A stretch of 64,000 nt of DNA from Patescibacteria group bacterium (GTDB lineage: Bacteria > Patescibacteriota > Minisyncoccia > 2-02-FULL-40-12 > GWA2-44-9), in the NCBI GenBank assembly GCA_038061995.1, contig JBBTYA010000001.1:10441-74440 (forward strand), given 5' to 3'. Made by a program: the position numbers and the translations under genes. Every line of letters starts with the position of its first letter. Position 1 is the first letter of the stretch. The notes below the pieces were generated by a model. It was given only the letters and a program-made list of their open reading frames with translations. It was not told where the DNA came from and did no database searches. This document shows positions 56 to 55,731 of this stretch, one piece after another.

Positions 56-128
56 GGCGGGGGCGCCAGGATTTGAACCTGGATACCTGGTTTTGGAGAC
101 CAGAGTCCTACCGTTGAACGACACCCCC
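56..128 (-). tRNA. tRNA-Trp (anticodon CCA); 3' end encodes CC then U, not a full CCA
   Basis: Cloverleaf read by hand on the reverse complement. Acceptor stem is GGGGGTG/CGCCCCC, T-arm is CCAGGTTCAAATCCTGG, and the anticodon loop CTCCAAA gives CCA. Confidence 0.8.
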
Positions 129-167
129 ATGACAAAGACCTGCGCACGGGTGCACAGGCTTTGTAAA

Positions 168-332
168 CTAGCCGGTCAGTTTTGCTTCTTTGTGAATCGT
201 CCGCTTTTTGCAAGAAGAGCAGAACTTTCGTAACTCAATCTTTCGCTCTACTTTCTTCTTGTTTTTCGACGTGTAGTAATTGGCCTCTTTACACACGGCG
301 CACTTCAGACGAATAAGGTTGTCTTGTGACAT
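168..332 (-). CDS. rpmG: 50S ribosomal protein L33
   Basis: The translation MSQDNLIRLKCAVCKEANYYTSKNKKK...CSSCKKRTIHKEAKL shows the L33 zinc-ribbon signature. The internal ATG at 332 was preferred over the track start at 386. Confidence 0.85.
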   Translation of the reverse strand: MSQDNLIRLKCAVCKEANYYTSKNKKKVERKIELRKFCSSCKKRTIHKEAKLTG

Positions 333-361
333 ATATGTAATTACGGTTATGACGAACCGTG

Positions 362-433
362 AGCCGACGGTGAGAATTGAACTCACGACCTACTCCTTAC
401 CATGGAGTTGCTCTACCTCTGAGCTACGTCGGC
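362..433 (-). tRNA. tRNA-Thr (anticodon GGT); no encoded CCA
   Basis: Acceptor stem GCCGACG/CGTCGGC, D-arm TAGCTCAGAGGTAGAGC, anticodon loop ATGGTAA and T-loop GTTCAATTC. Confidence 0.8.
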
Positions 434-452
434 ATGCTTCCCTTCTCCTCAC

Positions 453-595
453 TGTGGGGGCGGTAGGCTCTCCTTCGCCTCTCGACTTGCCGTCGCAAGT
501 CTCGGGCTAGGCACCGACTCGCGATCGCATAAGCTTTTGCGATACCGCTCCGTCGTTCGAATCCCACCGCTTCAGAACGACGATGATTTTTTACA
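453..595. other. Unresolved structured segment between tRNA-Thr(GGT) and tRNA-Tyr. It holds an exact 15-nt copy of the tRNA-Tyr 3' end (tgtgggggcggtagg), GC hairpins, and a + strand hairpin followed by a U-run. By E. coli-like synteny this is where a tRNA-Gly would be expected, but no cloverleaf could be folded.
   Basis: The 15-mer at 453-467 is identical to 623-637. There is a perfect 7-bp hairpin cgacttgc/gcaagtc and an 8-bp hairpin ccgtcgttc...gaacgacg followed by ATGATTTTTT. No T-arm or anticodon arm could be found on either strand. Confidence 0.25.
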
Positions 596-623
596 TGCCT
601 CAAGGCATCTAAAAAATACATTG

Positions 624-708
624 TGGGGGCGGTAGGATTCGAACCTACGTAGGCCGATCGGCCGACAGATTTACAGTCTGTTGTGATTGACCACTCCACC
701 ACACCCCC
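624..708 (-). tRNA. tRNA-Tyr (anticodon GTA), class II with a long variable arm; no encoded CCA
   Basis: Acceptor stem GGGGGTG/CGCCCCC, anticodon stem-loop ACAGA-CTGTAAA-TCTGT, long variable arm CGGCCGATCGGCC and T-arm GTAGGTTCGAATCCTAC. Confidence 0.85.
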
Positions 709-724
709 ATGTAATGAACTGCGG

Positions 725-796
725 AGCCGGCGGTCGGGATTGAACCGACGACCTACTGTTTACAAAACAGTTGCTCTACCACTGAGCTACGCCGGC
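725..796 (-). tRNA. tRNA-Thr (anticodon TGT)
   Basis: Acceptor stem GCCGGCG/CGCCGGC, anticodon stem-loop ACTGT-TTTGTAA-ACAGT and T-arm GTCGGTTCAATCCCGAC. Confidence 0.8.
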
Positions 797-50253: not shown

Positions 50254-50529
50254 CTATCCTAGTGCGGGGATTAGCACCCTCCAGAGAGTGATAGCAGCCA
50301 TAAGGAATGGCACTACCACCCCGAAGAATGCGACAAACTTCTTGAAACCGGAAGTCTCTAAAAACGCCTTGCTCCATGTCACGAACACGAAGCCGTTAAT
50401 ACAGAGCTGAAGCAAACCTGCGAGCAGATTAGCTCCCACGAACAGGTTCGTACAGTTGGCGATCAAGAAGAACGAAAGTCCAGCTAAACCAGAAGCGGCC
50501 ATGAGCCTTGAGTTCTTATCCAATTGCAC
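50254..50529 (-). CDS. Hypothetical small membrane protein
   Basis: 91-aa hydrophobic ORF between the island and the tRNA. Confidence 0.3.
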   Translation of the reverse strand: MQLDKNSRLMAASGLAGLSFFLIANCTNLFVGANLLAGLLQLCINGFVFVTWSKAFLETSGFKKFVAFFGVVVPFLMAAITLWRVLIPALG

Positions 50530-50575
50530 CCTCCAAAAAACATAATACCACTTTTGTGGTATTATGTCAATAATC

Positions 50576-50854
50576 TGGCTCCGCGGGTAGGACTCGAACC
50601 TACAACCCTCTCGTTACACGAATTCCAGTATTTTCATACCGGCGTGGACTATATCTTCACCATATCGCATATGCGACACAGGCGTTCTGGTATCTAGTCT
50701 CTACGGCGCCCCCGCCGAGGCGGGGTTCCCACGGTATTACCTCTCGTAAAAAACGAAGGGGCTTCACCGTTATCCCAGAAAGTTTCAATGCGCCTTTCGA
50801 CGCAAAGCTGCGTTTATCTCACAGCGAGACGCTCTACCATTGAGCTACCGCGGA
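50576..50854 (-). tRNA. tRNA-Asn (anticodon GTT) interrupted by a ~204-nt group I intron (50617-50820) in the anticodon loop between positions 35 and 36. It encodes the 3' CCA.
   Basis: The 5' exon TCCGCGGTAGCTCAATGGTAGAGCGTCTCGCTGT and the 3' exon TAACGAGAGGGTTGTAGGTTCGAGTCCTACCCGCGGAGCCA join to a canonical cloverleaf. The intron carries group I conserved elements: the S-like AAGATATAGTCC and the R-like GTAGAGACTAGATACC. The internal guide sequence GCAGC pairs with exon GCUGU, giving a U.G pair at the 5' splice site. The intron ends with G. Confidence 0.7.
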
Positions 50855-51177
50855 ATATTTTTTGTATAAGTGCTTGGAATCTTTCTTACCTTTGCGTGTA
50901 TCTCTCGATGACAATTTGCACACACCAGAATGCATTTATCAGCTTCCGCCTTTATCTTTTCTAGAGATCGCGTAAGCCCCCGAGCTGAAAGCCCGAACTC
51001 TTTCTGATGCGCGACTACGTGATGCAGATCAAGGGCCCAAATAGACCGCTTATATCCGCAAAACACACACGCACCACCTCTATATGCCACAACGAGAGAT
51101 CGAAGCTTGCGCCTTCGCGCTGCAACAGCCTTTTTGAGATACTCAGCTCGATCGCGATAGGTTCTCACATCTGGCAT
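50845..51177 (-). CDS. HNH endonuclease, free-standing, immediately upstream of the intron-containing tRNA
   Basis: CVFCGY...LDLHHV...CANCHREIH HNH zinc-finger motifs. The start was placed at MPDVRTY (51177), which has a TATACT element 9 nt upstream. Confidence 0.6.
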   Translation of the reverse strand: MPDVRTYRDRAEYLKKAVAARRRKLRSLVVAYRGGACVFCGYKRSIWALDLHHVVAHQKEFGLSARGLTRSLEKIKAEADKCILVCANCHREIHAKVRKIPSTYTKNIPR

Positions 51178-51259
51178 ATACACTGTAGTATACCACAAAA
51201 CCCCATGCCTGAGAACCCTATCGCAACCAAGTATATTGAGGATAGCCCCAAAAAGCAAC

Positions 51260-52486
51260 CTAATACCCCTTCAGGCGCTCGACGTTCTCATGCTGGCGGA
51301 TCTTTTCGAGTGCCTTTGCTTCAATCTGACGAATGCGTTCGCGGGTGACGTTGAACACCTTCCCCACTTCTTCTAACGTGTGGGTGACACCGTCCGTAAG
51401 GCCAAAGCGCATGTCGAGGATCTTTTGCTCACGCTGGGAAAGATCTCCGATGATTTCATCAATATACTTCTTGAGAATCTTGCGGCCGGCAGAAACGTCG
51501 GGCCCCAAAGCATTCTCATCAGGAATGAAATCCTCCAGGTGGCTATCTTCATCTTTTCCATCTCCCACTGGGGTTTCAAGTGAAATAGTATCTTGAGAGA
51601 TCTTAATAATGTGGCGCACCTTGTCTACATCCATATCCATTTCTGCGGCAACTTCTTCTGGCAGTGGATCGCGGCCCAACTCTTGCACGAGACGGCGTAC
51701 CACCTGCTGATATTTATTGATGGTTTCCACCATGTGCACGGGAATGCGGATCGTACGTGCTTGGTCTGCGAGTGCGCGAGTAATCGCCTGACGAATCCAC
51801 CACGTAGCATAGGTAGAGAACTTGAAGCCTTTGCGGAAGTCGAATTTCTCAACCGCTTTAAAGAGACCGATGTTTCCTTCCTGGATGAGATCGAGTAATG
51901 AGAGGTTCGCCGAACGCCCCACATATTTCTTTGCGACAGAAACAACGAGACGCAAGTTCGAAAGCGCAAGCTTTTGGCGCGCTGATTCATCATTGCGCTC
52001 GATGCGCTTGGCAAGCTCAATCTCCTCTTCGCCTTTCAACAGAGGGTACTTTCCAATCTCGCGGAGATACATCTGCACTGAATCTGAAGAAGAACCTTCG
52101 CTGAATTCATCTTCGATTTTCTTTTTCTGTTCGTACTCTTTTGCTGCCGTTTCTTCAAAGACGCTTACTGATTCAATAACGGTAACGTTTTCACCTTCAA
52201 GGCGCTCGTAGAGTGCTTCAAGACCCACGATATCTTGTTCGATGGTGGGGAATGCACTTAAAATTTCTGCCTGCGTGACAAAGCCGCGAGTCTTGCCGCG
52301 TTCAATGAGTGCGAGCGTAGCGCTCTCGCTCATCACCTCTGGCTTTTTACGCGGGGAGCGTGCGACGCTCTTCTTTTTCTTCACTGCTGAACGTGCAGGC
52401 ACGTGGCGCGCTGGTTTGCGTGCACGAGACTTTGTCGGCGCACGACGAGGAGTTGCAACTTTCTTTTTCTTTTTTGGAGTTGGCAT
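51260..52486 (-). CDS. rpoD: RNA polymerase sigma factor RpoD (sigma70)
   Basis: Regions 1.2 to 4 are present: [24 protein letters not shown], and the region 4 HTH. The N-terminus is Lys-rich. Confidence 0.9.
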
Positions 52487-55643: not shown

Positions 55644-55647
55644 AGTG

Positions 55648-55731
55648 CGGAGGGTGTAGGATTCGAACCTACGAGGGCTTTCGCCCACCTGTTTTCAAGA
55701 CAGGCGCCTTAAACCACTCGGCCAACCCTCC
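55648..55731 (-). tRNA. tRNA-Ser (anticodon TGA), class II with a long variable arm
   Basis: Acceptor stem GGAGGGT/ACCCTCC, D-arm GCCGAGTGGTTTAAGGC, anticodon loop CTTGAAA and T-arm GTAGGTTCGAATCCTAC. Confidence 0.8.

What the first reader, a model, noticed from the sequence alone, without database searches (positions are those of the whole stretch)
50576..51258. tRNA-Asn(GTT) split by a group I intron in the anticodon loop, abutted by a free-standing HNH endonuclease gene
The exons at 50821-50854 and 50576-50616 join into a perfect tRNA-Asn cloverleaf. The 204-nt intervening sequence carries the group I catalytic-core signatures AAGATATAGTCC (S-like) and GAGACTAGATACC (R-like). Its internal guide sequence GCAGC pairs with the exon end GCUGU and places a U.G pair at the 5' splice site, and the intron ends with G. 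This is the only tRNA in the window that encodes its 3' CCA. An HNH endonuclease ORF (CxxC...HH...CxxCH) ends about 10 nt inside the tRNA 5' end. It has a leaderless-like TATACT promoter, which suggests a homing-endonuclease-assisted mobile intron. Group I introns are well documented in bacterial tRNA-Leu, tRNA-fMet, tRNA-Ile and tRNA-Arg, so an Asn(GTT) host with the insertion after position 35 is unusual.
Basis: partly seen in the sequence, partly recalled or inferred. Interest (0 to 1): 0.7.

Follow-up and report, generated by a model that had tools for sequence, protein, structure and literature searches.

The report
tRNA-Asn intron with neighbouring homing endonuclease
This is a real tRNA-Asn gene of a Patescibacteria (CPR) bacterium that is split by a self-splicing group I intron of an already published kind; the part not yet described is the intact homing-endonuclease gene just outside the tRNA, which together with the intron is present in some strains and absent from near-identical ones.

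Summary
Exons 50854-50821 and 50616-50576 (minus strand) join into tRNA-Asn(GUU). The 204-nt insert is a complete group I ribozyme (P1-P9, U.G at the 5' splice site, terminal G) with strong covariation support. An intact 110-aa HNH gene ends with its stop codon on tRNA positions 8-10.

The intron is not new. Group I introns at 35/36 of tRNA-Asn are published for Patescibacteria and shown to self-splice in vitro (PMC13011429; Williams 2020). A 97%-identical copy from a sister genome, GCA_030583765.1, is in that paper's table.

Three points about the HNH gene go beyond those papers:
- In CPR genomes its family sits mostly inside this same intron (52 of 75 loci). It lies beside the tRNA in 18 of 75.
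- In phage tRNA arrays it flanks intronless tRNA-Asn, often with the same 10-nt overlap.
- Strains with 99.3%-identical dnaG carry, at this locus, an intronless tRNA-Asn and no HNH. The HNH+intron module is about 94% identical between lineages whose flanking genes are only 80-84% identical.

Best reading: an active free-standing homing endonuclease that moves itself and the ORF-less intron together (collaborative homing). Endonuclease activity and target site are untested.

The parts
50821..50854 (-). tRNA-Asn(GUU) 5' exon, tRNA positions 1-35 (position 17 absent); it ends ...CUGU
   Evidence: ARAGORN on the joined exons. Identical to the 5' half of the intronless orthologues L211-L216.
50617..50820 (-). 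Group I intron, 204 nt, no ORF, inserted between anticodon positions 35 and 36; the terminal G is at 50617
   Evidence: RF00028 at 44.5 bits, full-length match. Covariation on 14 homologues. 97% identical to the published intron of GCA_030583765.1.
50576..50616 (-). tRNA-Asn 3' exon (UAA...), with discriminator G and encoded CCA (50578-50576)
50807..50812 (-). Internal guide sequence CGCAGC (3' strand of P1); it pairs with exon GCUGU plus the first intron G and gives U.G at the splice site
   Evidence: Rfam alignment. P1 pairs are invariant or compensated in 14 sequences. Coordinates.
50625..50803 (-). Ribozyme core. P2 50803-50790; P3 50780-50775 with 50690-50685; P4 50770-50765 with 50736-50731; P5 50759-50740; P6 50730-50705; P7 50699-50695 with 50651-50647; P8 50681-50660; P9 50642-50625
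   Evidence: Helices mapped and tested by pair counts.
50845..51177 (-). Free-standing HNH homing-endonuclease gene, 110 aa (MPDVRTY...NIPR*). Its last 7 coding bases and its stop codon TAG are tRNA positions 1-10
   Evidence: ORF list. All 34 invariant family residues are present. PHROG HNH families, E 7e-27. dN/dS 0.04 against L002. 1320 homologues found.
51187..51195 (-). Extended -10 promoter TGGTATACT, 9 nt before the ATG (leaderless or nearly so); a -35-like TTCTCA lies at 51215-51210
   Evidence: Promoter scan. The same motif sits 8-9 nt before the ATG in most family members, both intronic and free-standing.
51178..51259 (-). 82-nt spacer between rpoD and HNH. It replaces the 73-nt spacer, with its own tRNA promoter, of the empty-site allele. 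The left junction of the module lies just after GGTTGC (about 51255)
   Evidence: 80 of 82 bases identical to L002/L087.
50535..50568 (-). Terminator-like hairpin (13-bp stem, AAAA loop, U6) starting 8 nt after the CCA; it marks the right end of the unit, and homology to relatives stops here
   Evidence: Folding gives -20.5 kcal/mol, z -4.8. Identity profile. The simple terminator scan did not call it.

Best explanation
**What the locus holds.** It carries what is probably the genome's only tRNA-Asn gene, together with two selfish elements that travel as one module.

[quoted passage not shown] After transcription it folds into P1-P9 and binds a free guanosine. It cuts after the exon U that forms the U.G pair with the guide sequence. 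It then uses its own terminal G to join the exons, which yields tRNA-Asn(GUU). The structure is shown here. Splicing itself is inferred from in-vitro results on related introns of this 35/36 kind in PMC13011429.

**Element 2, the HNH gene.** It abuts the tRNA 5' end and carries its own extended -10 promoter and a leaderless start. Its stop codon is the tRNA's U8-A9-G10. It belongs to a homing-endonuclease family dedicated to tRNA-Asn genes.

**Inferred mechanism (collaborative or trans homing).**
- The enzyme nicks or cuts tRNA-Asn alleles that lack the module.
- Repair from a module-bearing copy then co-converts the HNH gene, which starts at the tRNA's 5' end (34 bp from the intron site), together with the intron.
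- Because the module replaced the native tRNA promoter, the HNH promoter probably now drives the tRNA.
For: **Intron.**
- Full-length RF00028 match.
- 82.9% paired cells against about 40% for slid controls, and 41 of 60 pairs with compensatory changes.
- 97% identity to the intron listed for GCA_030583765.1. tRNAscan-SE finds no other tRNA-Asn in that complete genome.
- In-vitro self-splicing of two other 35/36 introns (PMC13011429).

**HNH is a functional gene.** 29 synonymous against 5 non-synonymous differences from L002, dN/dS 0.04. All invariant family residues are kept.

**HNH is tied to tRNA-Asn.**
- Of 75 CPR loci, 52 have it inside a 502-712-nt intron at 35/36 of tRNA-Asn, and 18 have it directly beside tRNA-Asn.
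- 15 of those 18 flanking cases have an intron. By comparison, 15 of 95 complete Patescibacteria genomes in PMC13011429 have a tRNA-Asn intron.
- In 80 viral loci, 47 have tRNA-Asn immediately downstream of the HNH gene, mostly with the same 10-nt overlap, and 21 have it immediately upstream.
- The same promoter-plus-ORF cassette occurs in intronic and free-standing forms.

**Mobility.**
- L212-L216 have an intronless tRNA-Asn with identical exons behind rpoD, and no HNH. Their dnaG is 99.3% and their rpoD 97% identical to the module-bearing L087.
- The window lineage differs from L087 by 16-20% in rpoD and dnaG (dS 1.4-1.8). Yet it shares the module with the same junctions, at HNH dS 0.49, spacer 80/82, intron 198/205 and exons 75/75. 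Fisher tests give p 2e-5 and 1e-7.
- On the right-hand side the two lineages share only the 41-nt 3' exon, as expected for a break inside the tRNA gene.
Against: - No cleavage activity or target site is known for any member of this HNH family.
- Intact HNH genes sit beside intronless tRNA-Asn in L008, L070, L034 and most phage arrays. The intron is therefore not required for self-protection, and the target need not be the 35/36 site.
- Of about 62 ORF-less tRNA-Asn introns sampled from metagenomes, only 3-5 have an HNH gene nearby. Such introns persist without it.
- HNH dS of 0.49 between the two module-bearing lineages means the transfer is not recent. Long purifying selection could instead reflect a host-level role.
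- No co-conversion tract extending into rpoD is detectable.
- The transfer inference rests on two module-bearing lineages and two empty-site lineages.
- Pfam HNH (18.6 bits against a cut-off of 21.4) and Foldseek (E > 0.4) are below threshold. Family membership rests on the motif and on PHROG models.
Confidence: 0.6

Rival explanations
1. The intron is real, but the HNH gene plays no part in moving it. On this reading the HNH gene escaped from the intron, or arrived from a phage. It is now kept for a host-level reason, for example because its cassette supplies the only promoter for the sole tRNA-Asn, or for some nuclease role. The module spread between lineages by ordinary homologous recombination.
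For: - The native tRNA promoter of the empty-site allele (TGTTACAAT) is absent from the module allele. The new spacer is far more conserved (2 of 82 differences) than HNH synonymous sites (29 of 80).
- Purifying selection has lasted over dS 0.49.
- More than 90% of ORF-less Asn introns have no HNH gene nearby.
- HNH genes coexist with intronless tRNA-Asn.
Against: - A promoter role does not explain dN/dS 0.04 on the protein.
- The family is almost exclusively in or next to tRNA-Asn genes across CPR bacteria and phages. That is the signature of a site-specific homing enzyme.
- On the right-hand side, only 41 nt of shared sequence was available for general recombination between the two lineages.
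Confidence: 0.25
2. The HNH protein is a splicing cofactor (maturase) for the adjacent intron rather than a DNA endonuclease.
For: It lies next to the intron and is probably co-transcribed with it. Some intron-encoded endonucleases of other families act as maturases (general knowledge, not tested here).
Against: - Related 35/36 introns self-splice without protein in vitro (PMC13011429).
- Most ORF-less Asn introns have no HNH gene nearby.
- Most phage relatives flank intronless tRNA-Asn.
- All catalytic and zinc ligands are conserved.
Confidence: 0.04
3. The gene is tRNA-Thr(UGU) with the intron between positions 33 and 34, as ARAGORN calls it.
For: ARAGORN in intron mode gives Thr(tgt) i(33,204). 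That alternative also has a U before the 5' site and a G before the 3' site.
Against: - Intronless orthologues with identical exons read CTGTTAA and are called tRNA-Asn.
- P1 pairing puts the U.G pair after CUGU.
- The discriminator is G.
- The window already holds a tRNA-Thr(UGU) at 723-796.
- This exact mis-call is documented, and sequencing of spliced products showed 35/36 (PMC13011429).
Confidence: 0.01

Closest known systems
Group I introns at position 35/36 of tRNA-Asn(GUU) in Patescibacteria (Nakagawa et al. 2026, PMC13011429; 'Asn.4Ug' of Williams 2020, bioRxiv 10.1101/2020.01.27.920355)
   Same: Same host phylum, same tRNA, same insertion site and same size class. The intron of GCA_030583765.1 in their Table S3 is 97% identical to this one. 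The ARAGORN mis-call as Thr(UGU) 33/34 is the same.
   Different: Nothing differs for the intron itself. That paper scored only intron-internal endonuclease genes, in introns longer than 500 bp. It counted this type as lacking one and concluded that mobility is limited. The paper's text does not mention the HNH gene that lies directly upstream in GCA_030583765.1, and no gene is called in that interval of the record.
Intron-encoded HNH endonucleases of patescibacterial tRNA-Asn introns (4 cases in PMC13011429)
   Same: Same protein family (62-73% identity to L009, L011, L012) and same promoter-plus-ORF cassette.
   Different: In those introns the cassette lies in the P1 loop, and the ORF tail is encoded by the guide sequence, P2, P3 and P4 ('ITQLP..EKRGELREA'). 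Here the cassette lies outside the gene and the tail is encoded by the tRNA acceptor stem.
Collaborative or trans homing in phages: T4 mobE with the I-TevIII intron (PMC2790892), and cyanophage S-PM2 F-CphI with the psbA intron (PMC6083498; reviewed in PMC3984707)
   Same: [quoted passage not shown]
   Different: Those cases are phage protein-coding genes with demonstrated cleavage. This is a cellular chromosome and a tRNA gene, activity is untested, and the same enzyme family is also found embedded in the same intron in relatives.
Free-standing homing endonucleases in phage tRNA gene clusters (T4 SegB, GIY-YIG, PMC2330249; HNH genes in phage tRNA arrays, PMC6409571)
   Same: An endonuclease gene is wedged between tRNA genes. 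Relatives of this HNH lie next to tRNA-Asn in Klebsiella phage Muenster and between two tRNA-Asn genes in Bacillus phage Bastille.
   Different: SegB belongs to another enzyme family. None of the papers retrieved in my searches mentions a specific link to tRNA-Asn, use of tRNA U8-A9-G10 as the stop codon, or a link to an intron.
Classical bacterial tRNA group I introns (Azoarcus tRNA-Ile, cyanobacterial tRNA-Leu and tRNA-fMet, Agrobacterium tRNA-Arg)
   Same: A small self-splicing ribozyme of about 200 nt in the anticodon loop.
   Different: Those introns sit at other positions (33/34, 34/35, 36/37) and are of subgroup IC3. The 35/36 introns are classed as IA in PMC13011429; I did not test the subgroup.

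Membership tests
Group I intron (Rfam RF00028) | P1 helix formed with the 5' exon, U.G pair at the 5' splice site, and an intron-terminal G | tested here: met
   The U.G pair and three neighbouring pairs are invariant in 14 sequences. G at 50617.
Group I intron (Rfam RF00028) | Conserved core P3-P9 with the P3/P7 pseudoknot and the R/S elements | tested here: met
   60 pairs, 82.9% of cells paired, 41 pairs with compensatory change, 0 of 500 shuffles reach the score. P7 is invariant.
Group I intron (Rfam RF00028) | Score at or above Rfam's gathering cut-off (50 bits) | tested here: not met
   44.5 bits, E 4e-10 locally. No hit in the default scan. Relatives score 52-92 bits. PMC13011429 used E < 1e-4 rather than the gathering score.
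Group I intron (Rfam RF00028) | Self-splicing with a guanosine cofactor | not testable with these tools
   Shown in vitro for two other 35/36 introns (PMC13011429), not for this sequence.
Patescibacterial tRNA-Asn 35/36 introns | Insertion between positions 35 and 36 of tRNA-Asn(GUU), in a Patescibacteria genome | tested here: met
   The intronless orthologue gives the exact junction. Window proteins match 'Patescibacteria group bacterium' and Ca. Paceibacterota records. 97% identity to a listed member.
HNH (His-Me finger) endonuclease | CxxC ... HH ... N ... CxxCH ... H motif (zinc ligands plus catalytic His and Asn) | tested here: met
   C37, C40, H52, H53, C86, N88, C89, H90 and H94 are invariant in 28 sequences including the window's.
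HNH (His-Me finger) endonuclease | Match to curated family models | tested here: inconclusive
   Pfam PF01844 gives 18.6 bits, below the 21.4 cut-off. PHROG HNH families give E 7e-27 and 2e-20. The PDB profile search hits the group II maturase endonuclease domain and McrA only weakly.
HNH (His-Me finger) endonuclease | Beta-beta-alpha-metal fold | tested here: inconclusive
   The AlphaFold2 model has pLDDT 88. The Foldseek hits against PDB are HNH domains (Cap5, Gme HNH, Cas9 HNH, Endo VII), but all have E > 0.4.
Homing endonuclease acting in collaborative (trans) homing | Endonuclease gene adjacent to an ORF-less intron, with relatives encoded inside the same intron at the same site | tested here: met
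Homing endonuclease acting in collaborative (trans) homing | Presence/absence polymorphism of the element at one locus among close relatives, with the element less diverged than its flanks | tested here: met
   The sample is two lineages with the module and two without.
Homing endonuclease acting in collaborative (trans) homing | The enzyme cleaves the allele that lacks the element, at or near the insertion site | not testable with these tools
   No biochemical data exist for this family. Coexistence with intronless tRNA-Asn leaves the target open.
tRNA-Thr(UGU) with a 33/34 intron | The spliced anticodon loop reads CUUGUAA and the body is Thr-like | tested here: not met
   The intronless orthologue reads CUGUUAA, and the discriminator is G.

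The most novel reading that the evidence does not exclude
One HNH homing-endonuclease family is dedicated to tRNA-Asn genes. In nature it occupies all three stages of the proposed pathway by which mobile group I introns arise.
- Stage 1: free-standing beside an intronless target, in phage tRNA arrays.
- Stage 2: free-standing beside an ORF-less intron that sits in the target, as in this window.
- Stage 3: embedded in the intron's P1 loop, as in most CPR genomes.

On this reading the window's module is still spreading by trans-homing in Patescibacteria populations. That would contradict the published inference that these tRNA introns are essentially immobile.
Probability: 0.45. Interest if true: 0.65.

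Novelty: new variant of a known kind. Interest (0 to 1): 0.5.

Why it matters
The intron itself adds nothing new. It is another copy of a published intron, and it shows once more that standard annotation misses the only tRNA-Asn of such genomes: neither the ARAGORN default nor Rfam's gathering threshold finds it.

The neighbouring HNH gene matters for three reasons.
- The recent survey of these introns looked for endonuclease genes only inside introns. It concluded that most are immobile. Here an 'endonuclease-less' intron has its endonuclease parked 34 bp away, and the pair is gained or lost together among near-identical strains.
- How endonuclease genes get into group I introns is an old question, supported so far by two phage systems. 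This family offers many natural examples of each arrangement on one 75-bp target. The direction and mechanism of the transitions can therefore be tested.
- Ending an ORF on the universal tRNA bases U8-A9-G10 couples an essential tRNA, its promoter and a selfish nuclease in one transcript. This layout recurs in dozens of phage tRNA arrays.

Tried and rejected
**Detectors that miss the gene.** Default ARAGORN and the Rfam gathering scan find nothing at the locus. ARAGORN in intron mode mis-calls it as Thr.

**Vestigial upstream exon.** I looked for a remnant 5' exon upstream of the free-standing HNH gene, as would be expected if a tandem gene copy had decayed. There is none in the window (p 0.79). 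Only L070 has one.

**The 82-nt spacer as a structured RNA.** Its fold is not significant (z -1.2).

**Co-conversion tract into rpoD.** The rise in identity at the rpoD 3' end is shared by the empty-site allele, so it is ordinary conservation and not a conversion tract.

**Simple terminator scan.** It called no terminator after the tRNA. Direct folding shows a strong hairpin followed by U6.

**Fold-based classification of the HNH protein.** Foldseek against PDB gave only non-significant hits.

**Bootstrapped tree of the HNH family.** The run timed out. The claim that free-standing forms arose several times therefore rests on an unsupported NJ tree and on best-hit identities.

**Literature.** Searches for 'group I intron' with 'tRNA-Asn' returned only mitochondrial papers. 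No paper in the library describes a free-standing HNH gene at a CPR tRNA-Asn.

**Maturase and tRNA-Thr readings.** Both rejected; see the rival explanations.

Full report
**1. What is in the sequence**

The following lie on the minus strand.
- The 5' exon TCCGCGGTAGCTCAATGGTAGAGCGTCTCGCTGT occupies 50854-50821.
- The 3' exon TAACGAGAGGGTTGTAGGTTCGAGTCCTACCCGCGGAGCCA occupies 50616-50576.
- They are separated by 204 nt.

Joined, they give a canonical 75-nt cloverleaf that ARAGORN calls tRNA-Asn(gtt). Default ARAGORN and the default Rfam scan of the window report nothing here. With relaxed thresholds, RF00028 aligns over its whole length (model positions 1-253) at 44.5 bits, E 4e-10. That is below the 50-bit cut-off.

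ARAGORN in intron mode shifts the intron by two bases and calls tRNA-Thr(tgt). Both placements have a U before the 5' site and a G before the 3' site. The Asn call is settled by four observations.
- The P1 pairing places the U.G pair after CUGU.
- The discriminator is G.
- A tRNA-Thr(UGU) is already present at 723-796.
- Decisively, intronless orthologues with identical exons read CTGT|TAA.

**2. The intron is a constrained ribozyme**

I collected 14 ORF-less introns from the same site in other genomes (alignment A2). I mapped the window's helices P1-P9 onto the alignment and counted pairs.
- 82.9% of cells are paired, against 36-41% when the partners are slid.
- 41 of 60 pairs have compensatory changes.
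- 0 of 500 shuffles reach the covariation score.
- P1, with an invariant U.G pair, and P2, P4, P6 and P7 are 98-100% paired.
- P3, P5, P8 and P9 score lower (60-79% paired); these fall in variable, gap-rich stretches of the MAFFT alignment, which I take to be the likely cause.

**3. It is already published**

Nakagawa et al. [quoted passage not shown] They show precise self-splicing in vitro and document the Thr(UGU) mis-call. Williams (bioRxiv 2020) had listed this type as Asn.4Ug.

The window comes from a 'Patescibacteria group bacterium' MAG. A sister genome, GCA_030583765.1 (Ca. Paceibacterota, 615 kb, complete), has the same rpoD-HNH-tRNA layout. Its intron is printed in that paper's supplement. 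In that genome tRNAscan-SE finds no tRNA-Asn at all, so the split gene is the only copy.

**4. The HNH gene**

The ORF runs from ATG 51177 to the stop at 50847-50845 and encodes 110 aa.
- It keeps all 34 invariant residues of its family, including CxxC, HH, N and CxxCH.
- It matches PHROG HNH families at E 7e-27.
- Pfam HNH is just below threshold, and fold search is not significant.
- It has no NCBI protein accession in the source record.
- Against the copy in L002 it shows 29 synonymous and 5 non-synonymous differences, dN/dS 0.04.

**5. Where the family lives**

There are 1320 homologues.

*CPR genomes.* I examined 80 species-representative genome loci plus a few others and could resolve 75.

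| Arrangement | Loci |
|---|---|
| HNH inside a 502-712-nt group I intron at 35/36 of tRNA-Asn | 52 |
| Just upstream of an intron-containing tRNA-Asn (window type; L033 has the same 10-nt overlap) | 12 |
| Just downstream of an intron-containing tRNA-Asn | 3 |
| Beside an intronless tRNA-Asn | 3 |
| Unresolved | 5 |

- All forms share a cassette: TGGTATACT or TGGTATAAT placed 8-9 nt before ATGCCAGA.
- In intronic forms the cassette sits in the P1 loop. The ORF tail is then encoded by the guide sequence, P2, P3 and P4.
- Pairwise comparison of L020 (upstream form) with L036 (intronic form) shows the same three blocks in a different order: cassette, 5' exon and core.
- Several free-standing genes have an intronic gene as their closest relative. 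This suggests repeated transitions, but the tree has no support values.

*The reverse test.* Of about 62 ORF-less tRNA-Asn introns from metagenomes, only 3-5 have the HNH gene nearby.

*Viral contigs.* Relatives at 42-60% identity lie in tRNA arrays.
- 47 of 80 have tRNA-Asn(GTT) immediately downstream, mostly with the stop codon on U8-A9-G10 as here.
- 21 of 80 have it immediately upstream.
- Nearly all of these tRNA-Asn genes are intronless.

*Named phages.* In Klebsiella phage Muenster the HNH gene follows tRNA-Asn, and in Bacillus phage Bastille it lies between two tRNA-Asn genes.

**6. Empty-site alleles and transfer**

Contigs L211-L216 encode RpoD of the same 90% cluster as the window. 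They carry rpoD, a 73-nt spacer with its own TGTTACAAT promoter, and an intronless tRNA-Asn whose exons are identical to the window's. They have no HNH gene.
- L212-L214 are 99.3% (dnaG) and 97% (rpoD) identical to the module-bearing L087. The module is therefore polymorphic within one species-level lineage.
- The window lineage is only 80% (dnaG) and 84% (rpoD) identical to L087, with dS 1.8 and 1.4. Yet it shares the module with identical junctions, right after GGTTGC behind the rpoD stop and at the tRNA 3' end.
- Module identity is spacer 80/82, HNH dS 0.49, intron 198/205 and exons 75/75.
- Vertical descent alone cannot produce this pattern. The HNH gene and the intron moved together.

**7. 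Mechanism**

*Shown:*
- the ribozyme architecture;
- an intact, constrained HNH gene with its own promoter;
- the family-wide tie to tRNA-Asn;
- joint presence or absence of the HNH gene and the intron;
- lower divergence of the module than of its flanks.

*Inferred:*
- The enzyme cuts or nicks module-less tRNA-Asn alleles, and repair co-converts the HNH gene and the intron. This is collaborative or trans homing as defined for phages in PMC3984707 and PMC2790892.
- The tRNA is now transcribed from the HNH promoter, because the native one is gone.
- RNase P processing removes the stop codon from the HNH message.

*Open questions:*
- How is self-cleavage avoided where the tRNA-Asn has no intron?
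- Why is the spacer so conserved?

**8. Verdict**

The intron is already known. The free-standing arrangement, the strain-level polymorphism and the link to phage tRNA arrays are, as far as the searchable literature shows, undescribed. I class it as a new variant of a known kind, of moderate interest.

Noticed in passing
window 50254-50570 (minus strand): A 91-aa membrane-type ORF (50254-50529) lies directly after the tRNA. It sits behind an 11-of-12 sigma-70-like promoter (50570-50542) that overlaps the terminator-like hairpin. Like the HNH gene, it has no NCBI protein accession: the rpoD and hydrolase accessions are consecutive.
   Followed up: partly
window about 50570 (tRNA 3' end); L004 3629-5131; L005 2654-4273: Synteny with the sister lineage ends exactly at the tRNA-Asn 3' end. 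In two other genomes a serine recombinase gene lies directly downstream of the intron-containing tRNA-Asn. This suggests that tRNA-Asn is also an integration site for islands.
   Followed up: no
window 51178-51259: The rpoD-HNH spacer differs at 2 of 82 positions between lineages whose HNH synonymous sites differ at 29 of 80 (p 1e-8). It shows no significant RNA fold. It may be constrained because it now carries the only promoter for the tRNA.
   Followed up: partly
L057 1275-2286: This locus has two HNH paralogues: one free-standing upstream of tRNA-Asn, and a second (GTG start) inside its 575-nt intron.
   Followed up: no
L070 about 2440-2937: A degenerate copy of the tRNA-Asn 5' exon (GTGGTAGAGTGGTCGGCTGT) lies upstream of the HNH cassette, and an intact intronless tRNA-Asn lies downstream. 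It looks like a decayed intron-bearing gene copy next to a second copy, and so a possible intermediate for how the endonuclease gene ends up outside.
   Followed up: partly
L298 (Bacillus phage Bastille NC_018856, 5857-6685); L237, L238, L248: The HNH gene is flanked on both sides by tRNA-Asn calls. This may reflect a duplicated target around the endonuclease gene.
   Followed up: no
viral loci L218-L291; window 50845-50854: The HNH stop codon is supplied by the near-universal tRNA bases U8-A9-G10, and the last residues (NIPR, NIPL, NGV) are encoded by the acceptor stem. This recurs in more than 40 phage tRNA arrays with different acceptor stems.
   Followed up: partly
alignment A2 columns 182-220 (L020, L027, L028, L062 against the window): ORF-less Asn introns come in two core types: with extra hairpins between P7 and the 3' strand of P3 (P7.1/P7.2-like), and without them, as in the window.
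   Followed up: no
L087 against L212, rpoD alignment positions 575-608 and 731-965: Two clusters of differences occur in rpoD between strains whose dnaG is 99.3% identical. This indicates mosaic recombination in this region that is independent of the module.
   Followed up: no
window 56-796 and 55647-55731: The five other tRNA genes (Trp, Thr, Tyr, Thr, Ser) all lack an encoded CCA, and only tRNA-Asn has one. Among the intronless orthologues the CCA is variable (CCG in L211 and L212, CCA in L213), so this is probably not significant.
   Followed up: yes
window 51260-52486: The rpoD ORF is 408 aa with a Lys/Arg-rich N-terminal extension. NCBI records of relatives annotate a 357-aa version.
   Followed up: no
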